DNA of 62,933 bases, the filler included, from Globobulimina sp. (Eukaryota): the NCBI GenBank assembly GCA_003354225.1. It is 28 parts of 28 records of this genome, joined end to end, with 100 filler letters (N's around TTAATTAATTAA, not from the genome) between each part and the next. Parts side by side here need not be neighbours in the genome. Positions count along the whole stretch, not along the records: positions 33,782 to 35,932 come from PIVH01008609.1; 27 more parts are not named here. One strand, 5' to 3'. Position numbers and translations under genes: made by a program. Every line of letters starts with the position of its first letter. The first letter of the stretch is position 1. The notes beneath the pieces were generated by a model. That model saw nothing but the letters and a program-made list of their open reading frames with translations. It had not been told where the DNA came from and made no database searches. Positions 2,254 to 57,219 of the stretch are shown here, piece after piece.

Positions 2254-2856
2254 TTTAATATTTATTTTTTGTATCGATGATGAAAAATTATTTAATTTTG
2301 TATAAATTTCACTTTGAAATAATTTTATTTCATTTTTGTTTAAATTATAATTTTTTTCTATATTTGATAAAGATTTTATTTTTTGTACGTCATTATTTAT
2401 TTCTTTAATAATTTCGATTACACCCTTACAGCCTTTATGATATTTAGTATTTGTTGACCACGGGACAGCCTTACAACATTTATATCTTTGTTGACAACCT
2501 TTTGATGTTTCTTTCGTAGAACGACAACATGAATAATATGATTTGCATGGAGTACTGCCATATTTCTGATTACAACATTTATATCGACATCCATTTGGAT
2601 CATACTCTAATTTTAAACAACATGTCATTAGTAGATCACAATCGTCGGGCGGATAGATCCCATATATTGTACCAAATAAACGCCGTGCATCCACTCTTTC
2701 CCACTCTTTGTGTTTATATATTCTGTTTGTACCGTTGGTTTGACGAAACCATTCCTCTTTGCCATCATGCCTCTTTTCTGGATGATTTTGTCTGTATTTA
2801 CCTGAATGATAATATTCTGTATCCAGGGGATGTAAAAACAAAGCCTTGGTTTCCAT
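2254..2856 (-). CDS. Cys-rich protein with tandem CC-x(n)-GC (Btk-motif-like) repeats then coiled coil, 3'-partial
   Basis: CCLKLEYDPNGC, CCNQKYGSTPC, CCRSTKETSKGC, CCKAVPWSTNTKYHKGC. Confidence 0.5.
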
Positions 2857-3586
2857 TGGCTCAATTGTTCGTAAAATGTTAAAAGTAGATAGAATTTCAG
2901 TCCTTTCAAGTAAAGTTAAACGAACAAATAAGCGTTTTCCTTTATGTACCAGAAGAAATTATTAAAGCCACATCAATTCAATAGCAATATAATGAAATGA
3001 AACAATATGAACCAACATTGTTCACAACATCAAATCATTATCATCCATACACCAAATATCGAATACAACCAATATACACGAACCAACCGACAAATACACA
3101 ACAGTCAAAATCCATATATTTGCAGCATAATATTGATGATAATAAATACGTTCATTTCATCACCAAATGGTATTGATAGAACACATAATAAAACACATGT
3201 AACTATGGATTGCACGGTTATTTTGCTCAAATCTTTCTTATTGAAATTTTTCTTCATACCAAATATTTCCGCGCCATCTATCACTGCATTGAATCAATAC
3301 AAACAGTTGAAAAATATGTGAAAATTATCCATGCTGCAGGTCAGCGTTATGGATTCGACTTGAATTAAATGTGTGCCACCAATGAAAATCCGTACGGTAT
3401 AGATATAAGCTACTGTAGTGTAGGCATGAAAAGTGCTTTTTATGAAAAAATAATTAAAATGTATTTTTTAATGTGAAAAAATGATTTCAAGTCCGTGAAA
3501 ATACTTAAAAATTATTTAAATACATGAGGCAAAAAAGAAACTACACACATCAATGAGTACAAAATGCTACAAATTTATTTATTTAA

Positions 3587-4986: not shown

Positions 4987-6261
4987 ACTCACAACTGCAA
5001 GTCGAAAAGAAAGGATTCTTAAGGGACTGCAATTTGAAACAGACAGGTTTCTTAAGGGTCTGCAAGGTGAAACAGACAGGGTTCTTAACAGACTTATAGC
5101 TGAAACGGACAAGGTTCTTTCAGGGACTACTGCAAGTTGAAATGGACAGGTTTCTTAAGATACAGCAAGTTGTAACGGTTAGGGTTCGTTAGGGACCGCA
5201 AGTTGAAACGGGCAGGTTTCTTAAGGGTATACAAGCTGAAACAGGCAGGGTTTATTATGAACTGCAAGTTGAAATGGACAGGTTTCTTTGCTTAAGGGAC
5301 TGCAAGTTGAAACAGACAGGGTTCCTAAGGTACTGCGAGTTGAAATGGACAGATGGATGAACCCTGTCTGTTTCAACTTGCAGTCCCTTAAGACCCTGTC
5401 CATTTTAACTTGCAGTCCCTTAAGAACCCTGTCTGTTTCAACTTGCAGTCCTATAAGAACCCTGCCCATTCCAACTTGCGGTCCCTTAAGAAACCTGTCT
5501 GTTTCAACTTACCGTCCCTTATAACTCTGTCAGTTTCAACTTGCAGTCCTTTAAGAAACCTGTCCATTTCAACTTGCAGTCCCTAACGAACCGTGTCCGT
5601 TTCTACTTGCAGCCTCTTAAGAAGGGACTGCAAGTTGAAATAGACAGGTTTCTTAAGGGACTGAAAGTTAAAAAGGACAGATTTCTTAAGGTACTGAAAG
5701 TTGAAACAGACAGGGTTCTTAAGGGACTGCAAGTTGAAATGGACATGGTTCTTAGCGGACTGCAGGTTGAAACGTACAGGGTTAGTTAGGGACTGCAAGT
5801 TGAAATGGACAGTTTTCTTAAGAGACTGCAAGTAGAAACAGACAGGGTTCTTAAGGGACCTCAAGTTGGAATGGACTGGGTTCTTAAAGGAATGCAAGTT
5901 GAAACGGACAGGGTTCGTTAGGGACCTCAAGTTGAAATGGACAGTTTTCTTAAGAGACTGCAAGTTGAAACAGGCAGGGTTCTTAAGGGACCTCAAGTTG
6001 GAATGGACTGGGTTCTTAAAGGATTGCAAGTTGAAATGGACATGTTTCTTAAGAGACTGCAAGCAGAAACGGGCAGGGTTTATTAGGAACTGCAAGTTGA
6101 AATGGACAGGTTTCTTTTCTTAAGGGACTGCAAGTTGAAACAAACAGGGTTCTTAAGGTACTGTAAGTTGAAATGGACAGATGGATGAACCCTGTCTGTT
6201 TAAACTTGCAGGTCCAAACGAACCCTGCCCATTTCAACTTGCAGTCCCTTAAGAAATCTGC

Positions 6262-6374
6262 ATATGGTCGGGCGGCCCGGCCCGTCTGGCCTGAAAAGTG
6301 CAGCCCAGCCAGGCCCGCCATAAAATAGCCCACGGGCGGCCCGGCCCAGCCAGGCTGGCCCGATCTCATCTCTA
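6262..6374 (-). mobile_element. Truncated hAT-like element end
   Basis: Ends TCTCATCTCTA (rc TAGAGATGAGA) abutting CTTGCAGT, with GGCCCG subterminal repeats. The other end was not found. Confidence 0.6.
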
Positions 6375-10389: not shown

Positions 10390-10717
10390 CACTGCAGTCA
10401 CAACTATTGAGCTAATTTTCATTGTTGTGATCGGATGTCAACTTTTGGAGTTGATCGCTCACCTCAATAGTTGTGTCTGCGGTGATTGTGGTGAGCGATC
10501 AACTGCAAAAGTTGAAATCAGATCACCAAAATTAAAATTACCTCAATAGTTGTCACTGCAGTGGTTTGCCTATCAAAAAAAGCAATATTCAACTACACTG
10601 TGTTTACATAAAAAGCAGTGGCTAAACTGTAAATATACTGTTTGCTATTAGTACTATAATGTTTTGATATGCCTTTCATTGGTGATCGGATTTCAACTTT
10701 TGGAGTTGGTCGATCAC
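10390..10717. repeat. Interleaved inverted-repeat cluster (22-bp motif A, 37-bp motif B)
   Basis: A at 10390-10411, inverted at 10463-10484 and 10542-10563. B at 10427-10463, inverted at 10490-10526, direct at 10682-10717. Confidence 0.85.
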
Positions 10718-11452: not shown

Positions 11453-13415
11453 ATGCAAGCCTCAGAAGAGAAAATCAAAGAAGATATCACCGTATTACCA
11501 ATATCTTTTGGCAATCCATCCAACGAAATCATCCACGGTCAATTACATCTATCCCAAAACAAAGAGGTATTATAAACTCCACAGAAACAAAGCCGATAAG
11601 CCACAAACCTGAAAACAAAAACAAAAAACAAGCACGCGAACAAAACAGTGGCAATGATTGGGATTCCCACCGAGATCGACCTCAAAGAAATATTCGCATT
11701 CCTTCAAAAGTCAAACTCGTCGCTAAAAATGAGTCACATGAAAATACTGAGCCAAGAAAGCTCGCAAAACAACGCCGTCGCTGATCCCTCCGAGTCTTAT
11801 TACTGTGCATTGTGCTCCTTCTCAACCACCACAGTTCAGTCCCAAATACAATCTATAGCTGCACCCAAAACGTAACACATTACAGCATATTCACCCAACA
11901 ATAACAGCACTCGGACATATTCATCAAACACCTCAACGGACAGTATTTCAATGCAGAACTGGCGCCAAACAAATGCTGCCTATACTACCTCGTAAACAGT
12001 ATCATAATCATCCACAAAGCGGAGGACCAATACAAAGAAATGCATTTCCCGCCGACCCGCATCACCGCAGCACATCTCATCAAACAAAATTCGAATCCAC
12101 TGAGCGCCAACTCATCAAACCACGACGAAGAGGACGCAAATTGTGCCTTTTGCTTCGATTCTGTGCAGCCACCATTCACAGCTTCGAGTTCGCCCAAAAC
12201 CAAAAAAAAGAACATTCACTGCGGCCACAACCCCTTCAAACTGCTGCCGTCGACGTCCGGCTCCTATCTAGAAAATGACGAATCTGCAACCCCTTCATTG
12301 TCCAGCTCGCCGCCGCCAAAAATGCTGGCAATGGCAAGCATAGCGGCGGACGACAAGTGGTACGACAATGACGCGACTGTTTGCTTTGTGCTTTGCGGGC
12401 ACTTCTTTCATGTGATGTGCTTAATGCGCTGTGAGCAGAACTCGTGCCCCATTTGCAGGCATTATCTGTTTCCGGAATCCAGCTCGATTTGCAATTCGTG
12501 CAAGCTGTGCACCAAAGATTTGTGGGTCTGCCTAACCTGCGGCCATTTGGGCTGCGGCCGCTTCAGTAATCAGTGCGCGTTGACCCATTACAAGAACAGC
12601 AGCCATGTCTGGGCCAAGTGTCTGACTACGAGCCATGTCTGGGACTATGCCGACGACGACTACGTGTATCGCATACTGATGGCCGTGGATGGAAAGTTGG
12701 TCAGTTTGCAGACTGCCAATGATGGCATCGATGGGAGCAGCAAGCATTTGCCGCAGGAATTGGATGTAATGAGCAGTGTGAAACAGGAGGAGTTTATCTA
12801 CGAATATAATTTCGAAGCGCAGCATCGGTTGAAGCGGCTGCAGAGTTTCCATAAAAGCAAAGAACATCGCAAGGTCAAGCACGGCCAACGTGAGCTGAAT
12901 AAGTTGGACATGGAAAGGAAGCGCATTGCACAGCAAATCGAAGCGAAGAAGAGAAGTAATATGAAATTGTTGAGCAAGTATACGGAGCGGTACCTGGCGG
13001 AGAAGGAGAAGGAGAAGAAAGAGGAGTTTGTGGATGATCTGGAATATCTACGCCAGCAATTGGAGCAGGAACGACATCGCAACGAGGCGTTGAAGAGAAT
13101 GATTCATAGAGCTTTTGTGGAGCAGAAAACAGGAAAGGAAAAGTTGAAGGAGTACGGGAATAGCCTGGAAAAGGCGTTGGGTGTCACGGAGAGTGCGCTG
13201 AATGGCGAGATCAATGCATTGAAAAACGAGTGGCGAGATTATAGGGCACATATTGACACTTCGCGGAAGATGGAGAAAGCTGCGAGTCGGCAAGAGTTGG
13301 ATGGTGCGAGTATTGAGGTGAAACCTGGGAAAAGCAAAAATAAACAAAAACGGCAATTGAAAAATAGGGCGCATTCGAATAAAAAAACTAAGAAACGCAG
13401 GAAAAGTAGCAAATG
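11453..13415 (+). CDS. BRAP: BRCA1-associated protein BRAP2/IMP/Etp1 E3 ligase (BRAP2, RING-H2, ZnF-UBP, coiled coil)
   Basis: Exons 11453-11566, 11633-11833 and 11908-end splice in frame. Motifs SFGNP..GQLHL, FIKHLNGQYFN, CGHFFH..CPICR, LWVCLTCGHLGCGR, HVWDYADDDYV. Confidence 0.9.
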
Positions 13416-28117: not shown

Positions 28118-28681
28118 TCATGATTTTGCAAAATTGAAAGGTATGGTCATTTTCGCGACAATTTGTTCCTCGCCAATGCATTTTGTCAGTTGCGGTAAGG
28201 TGAGATATTCTTTTTTATTGTCAAGTTGTCCCTGTCCAGACTGAATTAATTGGCTCACAATTTGCGACAATTTTTGTGTTGGATATTGTTTGCCGACCAT
28301 TATTGTCATAACATAATATAAGTCCGACTCAGATATTTTACCATCGTTATCAACATCAAATATTTCGAATGCAAATCGCAGTTTTAATTGTTTTGGTGCT
28401 TTTGCTGAAAATATCCATAGTGTTCGCACAAAATCACGAAAATTAATTTGATTCGTCGAGCTTGCATCAAATAATTCGATTACGCGATTACACAATGGAT
28501 TTAATGACAATTCAGGGATTAATTGCATCTCGTTTTGAGTTAAAAATCCGGAGTGCGATCTGTCTAAATGATGGAATCTTTTGTATAATTTCTTAATTTC
28601 AGCTGGACTGAATTCTGAAATCGCGGGATCGCGAAGTTCCTCAATATCCTCTGGTGTCAAAGAAGAAGTTGCACCACCCAT
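28118..28681 (-). CDS. Calcineurin B/CHP-like EF-hand protein
   Basis: MGGATS myristoylation motif; 'EIKKLYKRFHHLDRSHSG', 'IPELSLNPL', 'KLRFAFEIFDVDNDGKIS'. Confidence 0.9.
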   Translation of the reverse strand: MGGATSSLTPEDIEELRDPAISEFSPAEIKKLYKRFHHLDRSHSGFLTQNEMQLIPELSLNPLCNRVIELFDASSTNQINFRDFVRTLWIFSAKAPKQLKLRFAFEIFDVDNDGKISESDLYYVMTIMVGKQYPTQKLSQIVSQLIQSGQGQLDNKKEYLTLPQLTKCIGEEQIVAKMTIPFNFAKS

Positions 28682-28729
28682 TATACAAAAACTGTTTTCT
28701 AAATCTAAGTTTTTGAACTAAACTTATTC

Positions 28730-29179
28730 ATGTCAGAGAATATGCCTTTTCAGAGAGTAAATCATATCAATATAACGATCAAAGCAACAGTATTTGGTTA
28801 TATCCGTCAATGTGAATTAGATTTGCCTCAACTCCCTGAATCTATTCAATTCACTATTTTATTATTTTATTATCAAAATTTTGAATCATCCATATTATCT
28901 GAACAAGAATGTGATAATTTATTTCAATTATTTAATGATGCAAAAAAATTTGCAGAATTGCATATAAATCCTTCATATCAACTCTTGTATTCATCAAATA
29001 TTGATGGAAGAGAAGAGCATATATTCAAAAATAAATGTCATAATCAAAAACATTTGCTATGTTTACTAGAAACAGAAGCTAACGATGTATTTGGTGGATA
29101 TACCTCGGTTGGGTGGACTGGTAAAAAAGATGCTGATCAGTATGATGATAAAGCATTTATTTTTCTTATAAGGTCAAGC
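28730..29179 (+). CDS. TLDc domain protein, 3'-partial
   Basis: 'LLYSSNIDG...FKNKCHN...VFGGYTSVGW...DDKAFIF'; N-terminal 'TVFGYIRQ' leader. Confidence 0.85.
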
Positions 29180-29405
29180 NNNNNNNNNNNNNNNNNNNNN
29201 NNNNNNNNNNNNNNNNNNNNNNNTTAATTAATTAANNNNNNNNNNNNNNNNNNNNNNNNNNNNNNNNNNNNNNNNNNNNGGAAGAGTTATTGTGTTTTAG
29301 ATTTATTAAAACTTACTCGACCCTCTACATTTTTAAATATCATAAATGGAATTTCCACATTTTTAAACTTACTCAAAAGTTTTTTTTTTGAAATCCAAGT
29401 AGATA

Positions 29406-31265
29406 ATGAGTGATAATGTTCCAGAGTTGAGTGATAATGAAGACGATGATAAGACAGAAGAAGGATATACAGGCGGAATAGCATATTTCTACGACCAATC
29501 TTTACCACCAACTTTTATAGAATCTATATTTGGCGAACCATATCATATCAATGATAAATATGCATCACACCAAATAACATGGCGATTAGTCTTCACCTTA
29601 ATGTCTGAATCCATTGTAACAGGCAGCATATTATGGTTTGAGATAGCTTACCGATATTATTTTATCTCTTTGTGGAGTGTCGGACCATCACAATTCACAC
29701 AAATATTATGTATCATTCAAATTCCATTCACAATCCGTATACTATATGGTTTATTAATTGATAGTGTCCCATTCTTCGGTTACCGGCGTAAATCCTATTT
29801 ATTTGTATTCGGCATCGCAGCAATAATATCTTCATTCGGTTTAATTTATTACAATGAGTCCTTTATACTGCAAATACTTTGTTTGTGTATCCGTTCCTTT
29901 GCCATTGCATTTTGCGACGTGATCATCGGAGCCATCACAGTGGAACGCTCCGAATACAAATCACATTCTGTGGCCATACGCTTGCAGTCATTGAATTACT
30001 TCTCAATGTATGTCGTATCCTGTATAGGTCTCCTATTTGCAGCCAAATTCGAAGAGTCGCAAGAAACCAACCAACTCGTCAACGTATACTGGATGCACTT
30101 TGCCATTTCATTTCTAATCATCATTGGCTCGCTGCTCTTAACTGAAAGAAAGGAAAAACACAACGTTAACAAAGATACAAACGTTAGTGTCGAAAATGAG
30201 AATGGAAATCAAATTAGAGACAAAGTCAAGTACGGCATGCTAAGTAATGTAGATATCGACGAAGATGTAACTGAGGAACAGCAATCACAAACAATTAATG
30301 TGAATACTAACAATTACCAACCAAAAGAATCCTACTCTGTGCAACAAATCTTATCCCTGACATTTGAAACATTTTGCAGGAAAATTGTGTTTTATCCGCT
30401 ATTATTTACCTTTTTAATCGCAGCACAACCGCGCACCAATCAGACCATCGATTATTATTTGATGTATGCTTTAAAATTCAATGCCAATGAAATTGGCTAT
30501 TTGCAAATTATATCCACCGCAGCATTTCTATTATCTGTGATCATCATTACCATTCACAGCAAATCGCAGAAGTTCTCGTTACGTTCGCTATTTTTTGTGT
30601 GGACGTTTATCGCGGCCGTGATCCCATATTGTTCGTTGGTTTTGATATTTGGAGTGAATGAAAGCATATTTCATATTGGCGACTTTGCGTTTGCTGCGAT
30701 AAGCACAATGTTGATACGCATCACTGTGGACATGTTATTGTTGGCCACTGCAGTGTTGTACGCAAGGATATGTCCCCCGGGAATCGAAGCTGTTTTTTTT
30801 ACGTTATTGACCTCGGTTGCTACCTTCGGTGAAGTTTCATCATATTTGCTCACCTCTTGCTTGATAAATATATTTGATATCCAATGTGCTAAAGTTGAGT
30901 ATAAAAGATTTTATGGTTTGACCGTTCATGATCCGCATATACATTCTGCCAATGATTTAGAATGCGATTTCCATAACTTATGGATATTTGTCATTGCAGT
31001 TAATTTGACTTCGCTAATACCGTTAATGTGGATATTCTGGATCCCAAACGAAAAGGAAATGAGATGTATTGCGATCACATTAAGCCAGGCTGCGAGCAGC
31101 AAATTGAAACATAACAAAAAGCGGCGTGTTGATACAAATGATATGATATTATTCTATTTTGTTTGTGTTGATTATTTGTTTCCTTTTTTTAATTGTGTTT
31201 GTTGTTGTTGTCGGAGAAAAATAAAATGTAACAATAATAAGAGCAGCAATCAATATATTTTATAA
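29406..31265 (+). CDS. Folate-biopterin transporter (BT1 family, MFS)
   Basis: 'LYGLLIDSVPFFGYRRKSYL', 'AFCDVIIGAITVER', 'ARICPPGIEAVFFTLLTS'; multiple TM segments. Confidence 0.9.
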   Translation: MSDNVPELSDNEDDDKTEEGYTGGIAYFYDQSLPPTFIESIFGEPYHINDKYASHQITWRLVFTLMSESIVTGSILWFEIAYRYYFISLWSVGPSQFTQILCIIQIPFTIRILYGLLIDSVPFFGYRRKSYLFVFGIAAIISSFGLIYYNESFILQILCLCIRSFAIAFCDVIIGAITVERSEYKSHSVAIRLQSLNYFSMYVVSCIGLLFAAKFEESQETNQLVNVYWMHFAISFLIIIGSLLLTERKEKHNVNKDTNVSVENENGNQIRDKVKYGMLSNVDIDEDVTEEQQSQTINVNTNNYQPKESYSVQQILSLTFETFCRKIVFYPLLFTFLIAAQPRTNQTIDYYLMYALKFNANEIGYLQIISTAAFLLSVIIITIHSKSQKFSLRSLFFVWTFIAAVIPYCSLVLIFGVNESIFHIGDFAFAAISTMLIRITVDMLLLATAVLYARICPPGIEAVFFTLLTSVATFGEVSSYLLTSCLINIFDIQCAKVEYKRFYGLTVHDPHIHSANDLECDFHNLWIFVIAVNLTSLIPLMWIFWIPNEKEMRCIAITLSQAASSKLKHNKKRRVDTNDMILFYFVCVDYLFPFFNCVCCCCRRKIKCNNNKSSNQYIL

Positions 31266-31617
31266 ATTATTATAGTGTTTGCTCTGCTTCTTTTTTTTTG
31301 TGTTTTCTATGTGTGTTTTTTTTCTTACTTTTTTTTTTATTAGTTTCTATCCATTTTTTTTTACTTTTATTTACTCTTTTTACTCTAAACAAAAAAATAA
31401 AAACAATTAAGTGTTAGTTTCCAGATCAAANNNNNNNNNNNNNNNNNNNNNNNNNNNNNNNNNNNNNNNNNNNNTTAATTAATTAANNNNNNNNNNNNNN
31501 NNNNNNNNNNNNNNNNNNNNNNNNNNNNNNTTGCTTGATAAATTTCTGTTCTTTTCAATGAGTTTAAATTAATGTGTGTATATAATATCGTCAAATATAA
31601 AAACAGAGACCAAACAG

Positions 31618-31910
31618 CATGTCAACCTTAACTTTATAAAATCTGCAATTCATGAAACTGATTGAAACTGTTGATTGAGCTGTCTATATTGCTCAAAACA
31701 ACAAAATATATTCTTCAATGCACATAACAAACAAAATAGAAACTTCAGATCAACTTTTTCAAAAAGTGAAAATTTGACAATTTCTAACTTTGTCAACTCG
31801 AAGAATTGAAGTCTTTCCTTTTAGAACCTATCTGATTGGCACAATACACACACAATACAACAACACAAAAGTCAAGCAAAATGACGAAAGAGTCAGTGTG
31901 GTCATCCCTA
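31618..31910 (-). mobile_element. hAT-like element end, copy 1 of a dispersed repeat
   Basis: Colinear 293-bp match to 51788-52080; terminus rc TAGGGATGACCACAC resembles the Ac/Ds TIR TAGGGATG. Confidence 0.8.
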
Positions 31911-31929
31911 GTTTCATGTTTGTTCCAAA

Positions 31930-33051
31930 ATGAAGGGATGGGCAATGGATGACAGCGCGTCAGATGACGATGATATCACAATGCTAATGATGCCGCCAGT
32001 CTGGGGATATTTAGTACGCATCGAGAGCTCCGGCAACCACTGCACACCATTTATTCTAACCAAACCAAACACCACCATCGGACGAAAAAAAAACAACGAC
32101 ATCACCTTAACCGATGCCACCATATCCTCCAATCATGCAGAGATCGAAATAGATTCTGCCAACAAACAAGCATTTATCATCGACCTCGCCTCCACCAATA
32201 AAACACGAGTCGGTCCTTTATTGCCCTCAGCAACACAAAGCAATAAAATCGTCAAAGCCAACCGTCAAATTATCTTAAAATCTGGCGATTATGCCACTTT
32301 TGGTGATGTACATTTTATATTTTATCATAAAGAGGATTATGATGAATATCAATCACAACAACAGATCGAAAAAGTTAAATCAATCTACACACAAAGAATT
32401 GCAAAAGGATTAAATTACATTTCCACTGAAAATAGCGCTGAAGATGGTGATGGTGATATTTTATATATTGAAATGAAAACAAATTGTTCATTATCACCAA
32501 TATTAGCATCGCGAGGGAAGAAAAATGCACTTTGTGGCAAGAAAAGAACAGTGCAACAACGAGATGAAGAAGAAGATCATAACGCACATAATTCCAATAC
32601 TAATTCATTTAAACCACCACCGGCAAAACGTCCGCGTCGCGGTCGAATTGCAAAACGATTGCAACAATCAGATGATGGAAATAACACAAATAAAAAGAAA
32701 AAATCACCGAATCGAAGAAAAAGGACTCATATTATACCATCATGCCCGCCAAACACACAATGTTCCAATAAAAGGACATTAATAAATGTGGATGAAAGCA
32801 GATTTAATTTGAGAGAGTCGTTTGAAAGAAAAGAGCCATTATTTGATGGATATAAGGTGTATTTTTCAAGTGAACATAAACGAAATGTAAAGAAAGCAAT
32901 TGGTGCAATGGCGCAGAGTCGTGGCACTGCATTGATGCATATGTCAAAGAGTTCAGCTAAGAATGAGATTGATGAAAATAGATATACGTATTGTTTAACT
33001 ATACTGTATATATTCATTTTTGTTTCTTTTTTAATATGGATGGACATGTAA
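31930..33051 (+). CDS. FHA-domain protein with possible C-terminal BRCT start
   Basis: FHA 'TTIGRKKNNDITLTDATISSNHAEI..DLASTNKT'; 'PLFDGYKVYF' is BRCT-like. The 3' end is probably intronic. Confidence 0.8.
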   Translation: MKGWAMDDSASDDDDITMLMMPPVWGYLVRIESSGNHCTPFILTKPNTTIGRKKNNDITLTDATISSNHAEIEIDSANKQAFIIDLASTNKTRVGPLLPSATQSNKIVKANRQIILKSGDYATFGDVHFIFYHKEDYDEYQSQQQIEKVKSIYTQRIAKGLNYISTENSAEDGDGDILYIEMKTNCSLSPILASRGKKNALCGKKRTVQQRDEEEDHNAHNSNTNSFKPPPAKRPRRGRIAKRLQQSDDGNNTNKKKKSPNRRKRTHIIPSCPPNTQCSNKRTLINVDESRFNLRESFERKEPLFDGYKVYFSSEHKRNVKKAIGAMAQSRGTALMHMSKSSAKNEIDENRYTYCLTILYIFIFVSFLIWMDM

Positions 33052-33208
33052 CTGTTATGGGAAGTGTTTTGACAGTGAGTGATTTTTCATGATCAGTTTA
33101 TACAAAATCTTTGATCAAAACTTGGCGTATGTTTGGATCACATAAAATAAGTTATACGCGTTCGTTGTACTTGTATAAAGCACATGTGAACAACAAACAT
33201 ATTTATCT

Positions 33209-33361
33209 ATATACAGTATACATATACAATACAATATACAACATAATTATATACAATAAACAGTTTTTACTGGGACATTTAAATTAAAGTTTTCAGACAC
33301 AAGTTGTTTTTGATGTATATTGTATACTGTATATTTTTATTTGTATATGTATACTGTATAT
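33209..33361. repeat. AT-rich inverted repeat (MITE-like)
   Basis: Perfect 21-bp IR ATATACAGTATACATATACAA (33209-33229) / 33341-33361, with further inner TATACA motifs. Confidence 0.65.
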
Positions 33362-33515
33362 TGATGTATAAGTATATTAGAGTTAGTGCATTTAAGTGAA
33401 AAGAAAGTAAAGTCGATAATTCAGTTGATTTTATCCGTCTACAATCAATTGACTATGCTCAACTAAGTGATTTTCGAGACCGTTACATTTCATGTCTCCA
33501 ATGTCTACACTTGTC

Positions 33516-33610: not shown

Positions 33611-34129
33611 TCGACTCGTCCCGATTTACTTTTTTCAAGAATCGATATTTTTTAAAACAGTCCAAAAAGCAATGGATATGGNNNNNNNNNNNNNNNNNNN
33701 NNNNNNNNNNNNNNNNNNNNNNNNNTTAATTAATTAANNNNNNNNNNNNNNNNNNNNNNNNNNNNNNNNNNNNNNNNNNNNATACAAATATATTTGTGCT
33801 TAACTCTTCAAACTTTTCAATGTAAATTTAGTGCAAGGATATCGATATATGGATATGGAATAAAGTACGGGTAATAATTAAACAGTGTGCAGCTGCACAA
33901 TAATAAATAAAACGCTACGTTAATTATTATTTGTTCTTTTCGAGCACGCAAAATCGCATCACTAATTACTTTCTATTGTCATCAGCAACAGCACTAGGCT
34001 TTCTCTTTGATTTTTTAGTAATTAATTCTTGAACAGCTCTGTATGTTAAGCACAGCACATATATTTGTGTATGTGTTGGTTAGTTTATATCCATTAAACA
34101 TTTTGCAAAAACTACAGTGGCAATTTTTC

Positions 34130-34350
34130 ATGAGGTGGTATGCACCCACCTGGGCTGTTTAAAAACCACGGGTCAATAAACAGTCGGTCGGACTACTTTA
34201 TAAGCGACGTAGCCTGCTTGGTAGGTATTGGAATCACAAGGATTCGGTGTACAGGTACCCTACAATACGGTAGCTTCACAAAATTCATAAATAGATATGT
34301 GCTTAGGTTGGTGTCAGCGCCATGCTCATCAAAATAACAGTTTTTTTTTT
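34130..34350 (+). ncRNA. Candidate unidentified structured RNA (~200 nt) with downstream T10 tract
   Basis: GC-richer island with long-range stems 34130-34139/34319-34329 and 34142-34155/34301-34314 (G-U pairs), three internal hairpins, and T10 at 34341-34350. Confidence 0.45.
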
Positions 34351-34394
34351 AACAAAAATTGTTTAATTACTTCTAGCATCCTACAAAATCAACC

Positions 34395-35447
34395 ATGAAA
34401 CGCAAAGCAACTGTTCAATCAGAGCCACCCACAAAACGACAAAAAGTATCCACTCCCAAACCATCCCACGGATACAGTTCATTGGAAATGAAGGATTTCT
34501 TACAATTATTCAAACATTTGGAATCCCAAAAAAATCAAAATCAAACACTCGATCGTTGTATTTATGAATCCTATCAAATATTATCAAACAATCTCAACAA
34601 TACAGTTAAAAAACAAAAACAACAAACTCTGCCCACACAGTGCAATGCTAAAAACGCCATTAAAACAAAACAAAAACAGGACACTAAATCAGAAGACCGA
34701 AATCCAGAATCATTCCATACAAAAATGCGAGAAATTGTCAAAAAAAAAACCATTATCCCAAGCAATGTATTTTTCGAACAATTAATTCAGTTAAAAGCCC
34801 AAATCAAAGCCATTCGCTTATTATCGCGTGACATTGGTTTATCGCAAACCATCAGTGATTTAAGTCACGGCGTTGATAATCCACATTCATGGCAGAGACC
34901 ATACATTGATCCAACCCGTACACAGAATCCGTCGGTTTGTAAACAGGGAAAATATGATTTAGAATCCGCTAAAAAGGAGGGCTCTGATGACATTATCATT
35001 GATTCTTCGCCACAAACCATTGAACAGTTAGTATATCAAAATGAATATGATGGCCTTAAGAAGTTAGTGCATCGCCGGAGAATGTTAAAGAATTTTATCA
35101 ATACATGTGATGCTACAAAGTCAGCGAAAAATAATAAGAATGTGCACGTGAAAGGAAAGCATAATTTTGATGTTAGTATGTATAAGAAAGCACGCGATGA
35201 ATTTCAATCATTGGAGTTGTGTGAATTACAAAATAAAGTAAGGAACGAGATATTGCACTGTAGGATGGATAAATATATTTATGATGAGGATAATGGGGAT
35301 AATGAAGCATTGTTAGATCCAGATTTATTTGCAAGGACTGCGCAGATTGGATTGCATTTCGATCCACATATAAATTCTGCGAATCATCCACCGACAATGG
35401 CTACATCCAATGATGTCTTTCCGTTTTATTATCTTGGCGAAAAATGA
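34395..35447 (+). CDS. QLQ-domain protein resembling the SNF2/BRM N-terminus, no ATPase
   Basis: QLQ 'FFEQLIQLKAQIKAIRLLSRDIGL'; pre-HSA-like 'KARDEFQSLELCELQNKVRNEIL'. Confidence 0.65.
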   Translation: MKRKATVQSEPPTKRQKVSTPKPSHGYSSLEMKDFLQLFKHLESQKNQNQTLDRCIYESYQILSNNLNNTVKKQKQQTLPTQCNAKNAIKTKQKQDTKSEDRNPESFHTKMREIVKKKTIIPSNVFFEQLIQLKAQIKAIRLLSRDIGLSQTISDLSHGVDNPHSWQRPYIDPTRTQNPSVCKQGKYDLESAKKEGSDDIIIDSSPQTIEQLVYQNEYDGLKKLVHRRRMLKNFINTCDATKSAKNNKNVHVKGKHNFDVSMYKKARDEFQSLELCELQNKVRNEILHCRMDKYIYDEDNGDNEALLDPDLFARTAQIGLHFDPHINSANHPPTMATSNDVFPFYYLGEK

Positions 35448-45309: not shown

Positions 45310-46044
45310 ATGGGCTGTTTAAACAGTGCCAGGTACAAGATTTTGATGGTTGGTCTGGATGGAGCTGGAAAGACATCAATTTTATATCAACTGAGAAGAA
45401 GAAACCCATATAAATATAGCGTCATTCCAACCATTGGGTTTAACGTTGAATCCATAGAATACAGAAGTGCACCATTGACAATATGGGATGTTGGAGGAAA
45501 AGTGCGCAGTGTCTGGGAGTATTATTATCCACATACTGCAGGATTAATATTTGTTGTTGATTGCAATAATAGGCAACGACTCGATAAATATACCGAAAAC
45601 GAATCGGAAAAAGATGAGCATAAAGAAATTGTAAAATATTGGTTATACAAAGTGCTACAAAATGAACCATTTGCAACTAATATAAATATTCCATTGCTAA
45701 TTTTTGCAAATAAATATGATGGAGATAATGCATTGAATGTTGATGAATTAGGAACTTATTTAGGAATTTATAAAAAAATGAATCCCAAAGATTATTACAA
45801 TGCAAACGGATCACTTCCGTATACCATTATCGATATAATATTTAATGAGTATTTACCAGTCATAAAGGAAAATAATTTAAATAGAAGACCAGTATATCTT
45901 TCTGCAAATATATCGTTTAAATATGTTAGACGTCGCAATGTGGAGATAGACAAATTTAATTCGAATCAAGATTATGATGAATATCGGCGGGGAAAATTAT
46001 GGAAAGCAATGGACTGGTTTACTGATTGTTTGTTACGCAATTAA
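45310..46044 (+). CDS. Arf-like GTPase, divergent
   Basis: MG start, ILMVGLDGAGKTSILY, IPTIGFNVE, WDVGG, LIFVVD, FANKYD. Confidence 0.9.
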   Translation: MGCLNSARYKILMVGLDGAGKTSILYQLRRRNPYKYSVIPTIGFNVESIEYRSAPLTIWDVGGKVRSVWEYYYPHTAGLIFVVDCNNRQRLDKYTENESEKDEHKEIVKYWLYKVLQNEPFATNINIPLLIFANKYDGDNALNVDELGTYLGIYKKMNPKDYYNANGSLPYTIIDIIFNEYLPVIKENNLNRRPVYLSANISFKYVRRRNVEIDKFNSNQDYDEYRRGKLWKAMDWFTDCLLRN

Positions 46045-56283: not shown

Positions 56284-57219
56284 GCGCTTGGATCTGTGCT
56301 TGGGCCAAATGTTGGACCCTCTGTAGGGTCATCACTTGGCTGCTTTGTAGGGCTCAGCGTTGCCTGAGTTGGGTCATTCGTTGGATCCAAAGTGTCCCAA
56401 CAAGCACTACCTAAAAAGTCATCCATTGTTCCTGATGCTGTCGCCGAGCCTGAATCACAAGTAATGGTCACACTGCTCATCGAATTGGATGTAATTATAA
56501 CATCATTCGGTATGCCATTCACTGTTTTAAATGTGCCAGAAACCACAGTATCAACATCGATAAAACAAGTTGGCTGCGGTTCATATATACTGTTCTCCGG
56601 ACATTGTACAACATTTCCAGCGTCGCCGGACCATATTCCTGAGCCTGTTATTTCTAATCGATATGCTGTGCGAGCGTCTATATCCACTTGGCGACAGTCC
56701 TCAGAACCGGTACTACCGCGCGCACATTCGATATGGATTAATTCCGTATTGGTGCCTGCGACGATGTCAATTCTTTTGAATAGTTTTTCGTCCACAGTGG
56801 CGGCTGCAGGGTCCGGCAGAAAATACGCAGAGCCGTAGTTTGGTGCTGTGACAGTGACGTCGCGGTAACATTGAGAGCTGGAGGAGTATATATACAATGT
56901 GTTGCTGTTGGAGGCATCAATGGTTGCTTTGTCTAAACAAGTATCGATGGTACAGTGGACAATGCAGGTTCCTGCGTTGAGACAGTCAAAATCTTTGCCG
57001 TTGGACTTGGTGTCATCGCAAGTCATTGTACAAGTGTCGGAGGGTCCCGCTCCGGTACACGATGTTTTTTTATCTGTGAGGAAGGACACGTCGCCGGATC
57101 TGCCTGTGATGATATTGGCATTTGTTGATTGTGTACGTGAGTATAATGGGTAGGTTTAGCATACATTTGGGAACGAACACGGACAGCGCAAGTAGCAGTG
57201 CCTTGGATGAAGACACCAT
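56284..57219 (-). CDS. Secreted Cys-rich surface protein with PT/mucin-like stalk, 3'-partial
   Basis: Signal MVSSSKALLLALSVFVPK, short in-frame intron, Cys-rich region, 'DPTNDPTQATLSPTKQPSDDPTEGPT'. Confidence 0.75.

What the first reader, a model, noticed from the sequence alone, without database searches (positions are those of the whole stretch)
34130..34350. Unidentified ~200-nt multi-branched structured RNA candidate ending in a T10 tract
Seen: a GC-richer island in AT-rich intergenic DNA. Its ends pair (ATGAGGTGGT 34130-39 with GCCATGCTCAT 34319-29). A second helix follows with 13 of 14 positions paired, three of them G-U (GCACCCACCTGGGC 34142-55 with GCTTAGGTTGGTGT 34301-14). These close three hairpins: TGTTTA/TAAACA, GGACTAC/GTAGCC, and GTAGG..GAATC/GATTC..CCTAC. 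A T10 run starts 12 nt after the last paired base. Inference: G-U pairs that work on one strand only suggest selection on RNA structure rather than a DNA inverted repeat, and the T-run could be a Pol III terminator. I could not see hallmark motifs of U1/U2/U4/U5/U6, U3, SRP, RNase P/MRP or tRNA.
Basis: partly seen in the sequence, partly recalled or inferred. Interest (0 to 1): 0.7.

Follow-up and report, generated by a model that had tools for sequence, protein, structure and literature searches.

The report
End-paired orphan RNA candidate, unproven
A 200-base stretch in front of a gene of a foraminifer (a shelled amoeba) has ends that pair well and could be a small RNA gene of no known family, but an old inverted-repeat insertion explains it almost as well and nothing shows that it is made into RNA.

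Summary
The helices and the T10 run are in the sequence. The end pairing beats all 2000 shuffles, but whole-fold stability is modest (z about -2), and two of the three named hairpins are poorly populated (pair probability 0.00-0.07). No Rfam family matches. The assembly holds one copy. The host is a foraminifer. It has U1, U3, U6, SRP and MRP genes elsewhere; RNase P RNA was not found. The candidate lacks the RNase P, telomerase, SL and snRNA hallmarks I tested and matches this genome's own small-RNA promoters poorly. A low-depth contig in a public run shows a second version that keeps the upstream DNA and the first hairpin, with one compensatory pair. No homologue or covariation set was obtained. 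Best reading: small end-paired RNA gene of unassigned family, about 0.4; decayed foldback element about 0.35. Boldest reading: a minimal RNase P RNA, about 0.06. The scan noted similar elements elsewhere in this genome, but not this sequence.

The parts
34039..34129 (+). Upstream DNA kept in a second version of the locus; holds an ATATTT at 34061 and a weak TATA-like site at 34081-34093; promoter role unproven
   Evidence: run X4, record 21, depth 2.8; weak promoter scores
34130..34155 (+). 5' arm of the closing helix (24 pairs in the predicted fold, 4 of them G-U; four more T-A pairs possible from 34125)
34156..34182 (+). Hairpin 1: 6-pair stem, internal loop, short apical stem (shaped like a P3 bubble hairpin; likeness recalled, not tested)
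   Evidence: pair probability 0.85-0.98; same shape with a longer apex in the second version (read by eye)
34183..34246 (+). Flexible core with several competing small hairpins; GAATC/GATTC 34231-34245 is the best of them
34247..34279 (+).
   Evidence: pair probability 0.75-0.96
34280..34300 (+). A/T-rich, mostly unpaired linker; begins with a stretch resembling the Sm site of this genome's U1 (one change in the T run)
   Evidence: likeness seen by eye; no exact or one-mismatch hit to a canonical Sm pattern on + here
34301..34329 (+). 3' arm of the closing helix
   Evidence: a 32-base match (3 differences) also lies in another context in run X4, record 19
34341..34350 (+). T10 run: possible Pol III terminator, or pyrimidine tract before the start of the next gene
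34140..34337 (+). 65-codon ATG frame across the island, probably not a gene
   Evidence: a one-base loss at 34146 in the second version would shift it
34395..35447 (+). Neighbouring gene of a foraminiferan protein family, 75-base GT-AG skip at 34605-34679

Best explanation
A stand-alone small non-coding RNA gene on the + strand, about 34130-34345, of no assignable family. Shown: the two ends can form a long bulged helix; a bubble hairpin and a second bulged hairpin branch from it; a T run follows. Inferred: it is transcribed as one short RNA, most simply by Pol III ending in the T run. The closing helix and the oligo-U end protect it, and it works as a protein-binding scaffold built like RNase P/MRP RNA (closing stem, bubble hairpin at the first branch that docks proteins, loose core), without a recognisable catalytic centre. 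Transcription, polymerase, partners and function are all inferred.
For: End duplex better than 2000 of 2000 shuffles. Mismatches favour one strand: 4 G-U pairs in the predicted closing helix, and 3 G-U-type against 0 A-C-type transitions in the arm alignment; 1-3% of simulated decayed repeats are as lopsided. No stability as DNA. GC (45.5%) and z (-2.1) lie within the range of this genome's U6, U1, U3 and MRP genes (GC 36-46%, z +0.7 to -5.6, 6 genes). Own U6 and MRP genes also end in T runs. A second version in run X4 keeps 34039-34161 (3 substitutions, 17 gap letters) and then carries a longer apex of hairpin 1 that still pairs, with one A-T to C-G double change (read by eye); the two own MRP copies also differ in the apex of their first hairpin. 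No many-copy family in the assembly.
Against: Whole-fold z only about -2, interior -0.95. No match to own promoters: TATA model rank 294 of 119,792; two-block U1/U3 model rank 2271-3259 of 116,864, while held-out U1 promoters outscore every window position; no A or B box. A start set by the TATA-like site would put a T5 run inside the transcript, where own U6 and MRP genes have at most T3. Six other 1-kb bins of the window hold inverted pairs of -26 kcal/mol or better. The second version is one contig at depth 2.8 and one compensatory pair; another low-depth contig (record 19) joins 33833 to 34306 and so lacks most of the element, though its short side is only 27 letters. No homologue in any collection searched.
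Confidence: 0.4

Rival explanations
1. A decayed foldback or MITE-like DNA insertion in the promoter region of the next gene. The arms are old terminal inverted repeats, the interior folds no better than chance, and the T10 belongs to the neighbouring gene's start region.
For: The signal is nearly all in the arms. Inverted pairs are common in the window (six other 1-kb bins) and one shows the same strand gap. Each arm turns up in a separate second context in run X4. Position 34351, right after the T10, ranks 4th of 116,864 in the U1+U3 start model. Earlier unchecked notes describe many such elements in this genome.
Against: No further copy in the assembly by DNA search or by arm patterns with 1 and 3 mismatches (the tool warns that no match does not show rarity). 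No clear target-site duplication seen by eye. The second version also keeps about 90 bases upstream of the 5' arm, which a transposed copy would not. Strand bias p about 0.01-0.03 in simulation.
Confidence: 0.35
2. Ordinary regulatory DNA of the downstream gene: promoter, or a 240-base 5'-UTR intron from GTATG at 34138 to the AG at 34377 with the T10 as its pyrimidine tract, or a small ORF. The pairing would then be incidental.
For: A GTATG donor that fits this genome's U1 5' end lies at 34138; T10 and a TAG follow. A 65-codon frame spans the island. Another T10 lies just before the start of the gene at 29406.
Against: GTATG occurs 104 times in the window. The ORF has no homologue among proteins of 35-114 residues, looks like shuffled protein to the Atlas and would be frameshifted in the second version. 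Chance does not explain an end duplex beyond 2000 shuffles.
Confidence: 0.17
3. The missing nuclear RNase P RNA, shrunk to about 200 bases: P1 34130-50/34306-29, P2 34152-56/34272-76, P3 34157-81, a P4-like pseudoknot 34201-11/34296-305, P5 34212-16/34252-56 and one hairpin in place of the specificity domain.
For: Neither RNase P RNA nor protein-only RNase P was found in the genome while MRP RNA was. The helices occur in the right order, and the base of the 3' arm is preceded by GCTTA as in own MRP. The full pattern arises in 1.4% of 5000 interior shuffles, 6.6% without the AAG condition (pattern drawn after seeing the sequence).
Against: No CR-I or CR-V motif; no bulged U in the P4-like helix, where a universally conserved uridine binds the catalytic metal (PMC10966300, passages). 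No hit to the Rfam RNase P or MRP models at E 10 or to a profile of own MRP. P4-like pairs have probability 0.01-0.04 against the nested helix. Most RNase P RNAs are 250-550 bases (PMC2996960, passages). Both genome blanks are weak: 15 of 1639 candidates scored, the PRORP control rang nowhere, and the assembly is in 48,370 pieces.
Confidence: 0.06
4. Telomerase RNA or spliced-leader RNA.
For: Pol III telomerase RNAs are reported across plants, ciliates and Blastocystis and no rhizarian candidate could be supported (PMC8287931, passages). TACCCTAC at 34256-63 could template a TAGGG repeat. A donor-like site lies near the 5' end.
Against: No CCCTAA template on either strand. Only one three-copy TAGGG run among 4 hits of a telomere-type pattern, against 18 for the reversed control. 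No upstream element. An SL exon from 34130 would be 8 bases and single copy, where SL exons are 16-52 bases and usually many-copy and were not found in Reticulomyxa (PMC6053224, passages).
Confidence: 0.03

Closest known systems
Eukaryotic RNase P / RNase MRP RNA (Rfam RF00009, RF00030)
   Same: Long helix joining the ends, a bubble hairpin at the first branch, GCTTA just before the 3' arm, T run behind; own MRP copies vary in the same hairpin apex.
   Different: About 200 bases; no CR-I, no CR-V match, no bulged U, no upstream element or TATA like own MRP; T run not adjacent to the helix; no model hit.
Pol III (type 3 promoter) telomerase RNAs of plants, ciliates and Blastocystis (PMC8287931, passages)
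   Same: Size range (recalled), end-closing stem, T run, no sequence homology to databases.
   Different: No CCCTAA template, no upstream element, no pseudoknot seen 3' of any template-like stretch.
MITE / foldback non-autonomous DNA elements (name recalled; also used in earlier notes on this genome)
   Same: Imperfect inverted ends around an unrelated interior, between genes.
   Different: One copy in the assembly, no clear target-site duplication, mismatches biased to G-U on one strand, upstream flank shared with the second version.
Pol II snRNA-type genes of this genome (U1, U3)
   Same: ATATTT 69 bases before an A that follows a pyrimidine run (U1 65-68, U3 56-58; 56 in the second version by my count); 18 of 114,846 positions meet this simple rule.
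   Different: A weight-matrix test does not confirm it; no U1, U2, U5, U6 or C/D hallmark on +.

Membership tests
Any Rfam 15 family | Covariance-model score | tested here: not met
   0 at gathering score in the window; one unrelated weak hit on the T run at E 4; 0 at E 10 on 34110-34352
Nuclear RNase P RNA | P1 helix joining the ends | tested here: met
Nuclear RNase P RNA | CR-I motif directly after P3 | tested here: not met
   (consensus patterns recalled; own MRP has the motif)
Nuclear RNase P RNA | P4 pseudoknot of CR-I and CR-V with the conserved bulged U | tested here: not met
   A 10-pair helix is possible but has no bulged U, probability 0.01-0.04, and 17.7% of shuffles give one as long
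Nuclear RNase P RNA | CR-II/CR-III T-loops of the specificity domain | not tested
   Only about 40 bases lie where the domain would be; no motif search run
Nuclear RNase P RNA | Pre-tRNA cleavage and Pop protein binding | not testable with these tools
   needs bench work
Telomerase RNA | Single-stranded template matching the telomere repeat | tested here: inconclusive
   No CCCTAA; the organism's repeat could not be fixed
Telomerase RNA | Type 3 promoter shared with other small-RNA genes | tested here: not met
Type 3 Pol III gene of this genome | TATA box 29-41 bases upstream like U6 and MRP | tested here: not met
   score 4.1 against 16.9-18.7, 46 bases before 34130
Type 3 Pol III gene of this genome | T run at the 3' end | tested here: met
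   T10 at 34341-50, but such runs are common
Type 2 Pol III gene (tRNA, vault, SINE) | Internal A and B boxes | tested here: not met
   none with up to one mismatch; no tRNA
Spliceosomal snRNA, U3, SRP | Hallmark motifs and model score | tested here: not met
   U1, U3, U6, SRP lie elsewhere in the genome; U2, U4, U5, U11, U12 were not searched genome-wide
Spliced-leader RNA | 16-52 base exon, donor, many copies, leader on mRNAs | tested here: not met
   8-base exon from 34130, single copy; leader on mRNAs not testable
MITE / foldback element | Terminal inverted repeats | tested here: met
   24 of 34 aligned columns complementary
MITE / foldback element | Many dispersed copies | tested here: not met
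   1 in the assembly; partial second versions in run X4
MITE / foldback element | Target-site duplication or empty site | tested here: inconclusive
   None clear by eye; record 19 skips 33834-34305, which does not match the helix ends
Protein-coding gene | Conserved open frame | tested here: not met

The most novel reading that the evidence does not exclude
Foraminifers process tRNA with a minimal RNase P RNA of about 200 bases that has lost the specificity domain and rewritten the P4 catalytic motif, and this locus is its gene; this would explain why neither RNase P RNA nor protein-only RNase P was found in the genome. A milder version, a new foraminiferan small-RNA class with a P3-like protein dock, is included in the 0.4 of the best explanation.
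Probability: 0.06. Interest if true: 0.85.

Novelty: new member of a known kind. Interest (0 to 1): 0.33.

Why it matters
My searches listed no paper on foraminiferan small RNAs, and one study could support no telomerase RNA candidate in the rhizarians it tried (PMC8287931). A real orphan RNA gene here would open that inventory. If it proved to be RNase P RNA it would overturn the view that the P4 motif cannot change. If it is a foldback relic it is ordinary. The side result, MRP RNA present but no RNase P of either type found, is a testable gap in its own right.

Tried and rejected
No RNA holder was listed for the stretch. Three runs guessed to be RNA cover only the next gene, from 34389 on; they are contigs of unknown library type, so this is no evidence on expression. 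Homologue hunts that found nothing: metagenome pattern, metagenome and viral scans with the neighbour-protein alignment (55 and 49 pattern matches, none confirmed), viral patterns, phage blastn (one 23-base hit at E 0.07), earlier-findings look-ups by sequence and place. Ten bacterial 20-base matches scored at most 9 bits with the single-sequence model R1 and were taken as chance, as was a 9.7-bit A/T-rich hit in L031. R1 found no second copy in the window; it could not be run on the whole genome, so distant paralogues in the assembly remain unexcluded. A U1-type promoter looked good by a simple rule but failed a weight-matrix test. A U6-type TATA looked good by eye but scored low. H/ACA, U1-like, U17-like and minus-strand C/D readings were considered by eye and dropped: no pocket at the right distance from the ACA at 34337, motifs in the wrong order, or boxes 8 bases apart. 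No covariation analysis was possible with one full sequence. U2, U4, U5, minor snRNAs and TERT were not searched in the genome. Supplements of the cited papers were not read; those of PMC8287931 may list rhizarian candidates.

Full report
Observation. The stretch 34130-34350 lies in one contig of the own genome (G000:C8609), 65 bases before the ATG of a 350-codon gene at 34395. The GC content is 45.5%, in the top 6% of 2732 windows. The pairing of the ends is the strong signal: -31.4 kcal/mol against -11.6 +/- 3.7, with 0 of 2000 shuffles as good, although the ends were chosen after the fact. The whole fold is only modestly stable (z -2.0, 8 of 200 shuffles; z -1.8, 12 of 200), and the interior alone is not (z -0.95). 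Of the three hairpins, the first is well supported; the second (0.05-0.07) and the outer helix of the third (0.00) are not, and a different hairpin at 34247-34279 is.

Host and inventory. The neighbouring protein has 10 relatives at E below 0.001 among 770 candidates, including Bolivina argentea (69%) and Reticulomyxa filosa (31%), so the host is a foraminifer. Own-genome searches found U6 (8 matches), MRP (2), SRP (20 matches, 1 over the cut-off), U3 (6, under the cut-off) and U1 (4 matches, 3 at E below 2e-7). None coincides with the candidate. RNase P RNA gave 0 matches (15 of 1639 candidates scored) and PRORP 0 (its control rang nowhere); both blanks are weak in an assembly of 48,370 contigs. 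The candidate matches no Rfam family and no tRNA.

Copy number and relatives. DNA searches with the island and its upstream flank, and patterns from both arms with 1 and 3 mismatches, return only this locus. Metagenome, viral, phage and prokaryote collections gave no homologue. The only comparative data come from run X4. Record 20 matches 33950-34451 without a difference. Record 21 (depth 2.8) matches 34039-34161 with 3 substitutions and 17 gap letters, then departs inside hairpin 1. Read by eye, its 30 shown letters form a 6-pair apical stem with a longer loop and rejoin the window at the 3' side of the internal loop, with one A-T to C-G double change and one pair that the window version lacks. 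Record 19 (depth 4) carries the 3' arm (32 bases, 3 differences) joined through 34 other letters to a 27-base match at 33807-33833, so it lacks most of the element. Both are single low-depth contigs, X4 may be the source of the assembly, and they pull in opposite directions.

RNA or DNA repeat. In the predicted closing helix 4 of 24 pairs are G-U, and the arm alignment has 3 G-U-type and 0 A-C-type transitions. The arms pair 10.8 kcal/mol better on + than on -, which 1-2% of simulated decayed inverted repeats reach (3% two-sided). As DNA the fold is unremarkable. Against this, six other 1-kb bins of the window hold inverted pairs of -26 or better among 41,648 pairs tested, and 1 of these 6 shows a 9.8 kcal/mol strand gap. 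GC and z fall within the range of 6 real small-RNA genes of this genome, which is wide (z +0.7 to -5.6).

Transcription signals. Own MRP and U3 genes, and 2 of 4 SRP loci examined, share a CCATA-type upstream element; U6 and U1 lack it. The candidate lacks it too. Its TATA-like site at 34081 scores 4.1 against 16.9-18.7 for the six training sites and ranks 294 of 119,792. A simple rule drawn from U1 and U3 (ATATTT upstream, pyrimidine run, A) picks 18 of 114,846 positions, one being exactly 34130, but I framed the rule after seeing the match and a weight matrix ranks the site only 2271-3259 of 116,864. The same matrix ranks 34351, just after the T10, 4th, so the T run may belong to the next gene's start. 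There are no A or B boxes. Expression is untested.

Family tests. RNase P: an ordered set of P1, P2, P3, P4-like and P5 helices can be drawn, and 1.4% of 5000 interior shuffles allow the same (6.6% without the AAG condition). But CR-I and CR-V are absent, the P4-like helix has no bulged U and low probability, and a profile of own MRP does not find the locus. PMC2996960 (passages) gives 250-550 bases and CR-I to CR-V with the P4 pseudoknot as the marks; PMC10966300 (passages) gives the conserved P4 uridine and the P3 bubble that binds Pop6, Pop7 and Pop1; PMC4919922 (passages) calls P4 the most conserved region. So it is not filed as a member. Telomerase RNA: no CCCTAA, and the organism's repeat is unknown (PMC8287931 passages). 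SL RNA: exon too short and single copy (PMC6053224 passages). A 65-codon frame across the island has no relative. Consensus motifs used were mostly recalled.

How it most likely works. I put about 0.4 on a small RNA gene whose ends close into a long stem and whose bubble hairpin docks proteins, made by Pol III and ended at the T run: it would work like the scaffold of RNase P/MRP without being a member. Only the pairing potential is shown. A decayed foldback element in the next gene's promoter gets about 0.35, ordinary regulatory DNA 0.17, a minimal RNase P RNA 0.06, telomerase or SL RNA 0.03.

Novelty. Literature searches (listings only, except the five papers named) listed nothing on foraminiferan small RNAs of this kind; the library lacks most subscription papers. 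Earlier notes of this scan report other end-paired or snRNA-type elements and many foldback repeats in this genome (unchecked), which raised my weight on the repeat reading; none matched this sequence. Verdict: a real feature, an unproven RNA, family unassigned; interest 0.33.

Noticed in passing
own genome G000: MRP RNA is present (2 copies) but neither nuclear RNase P RNA nor PRORP was found; both blanks are weak.
   Followed up: partly
L008, L009, L013, L015, L022-L027 upstream: MRP, SRP and U3 genes share a CCATA-type upstream element about 30 bases before an A/T-rich box; U6 and U1 instead share an AGTGC motif. A usable key for finding further small-RNA genes, telomerase RNA included.
   Followed up: partly
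L029-L031: The three best U1 genes have an A where the recalled canonical 5' end has a U, which would pair with GTATGT donors.
   Followed up: no
   Followed up: no
L010 to L015: SRP matches fall in two groups: one GC-rich full-length hit (L010, possibly foreign DNA) and a many-copy A/T-rich family that keeps the helix-8 motif but scores under the cut-off.
   Followed up: no
window 34395-35447: Foraminiferan protein family with a conserved core; one relative carries PF08880 (QLQ, name recalled), the window protein has no Pfam hit; 75-base in-frame GT-AG skip at 34605-34679 in three runs.
   Followed up: partly
window 5000-6300, 10497-10712, 12545-12856, 33201-33368, 56625-56824: Other inverted-repeat pairs, a dense array at 5.0-6.3 kb.
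   Followed up: no
window 45913-45925: Exact match to the 13-base TATA site of two U6 genes, with no recognisable RNA behind it.
   Followed up: partly
window 33790-33833: Short stretch that recurs in other contigs of run X4 (records 18, 19), followed by an AGTGC motif at 33830.
   Followed up: no
L016, L019: Degenerate TTAGGG/TTTAGGG arrays inside contigs, not at their ends.
   Followed up: no
window 28118-33051: Nearby genes: EF-hand protein (28118-28681, -), BT1-family transporter (29406-31265), FHA-domain protein (31930-33051).
   Followed up: no
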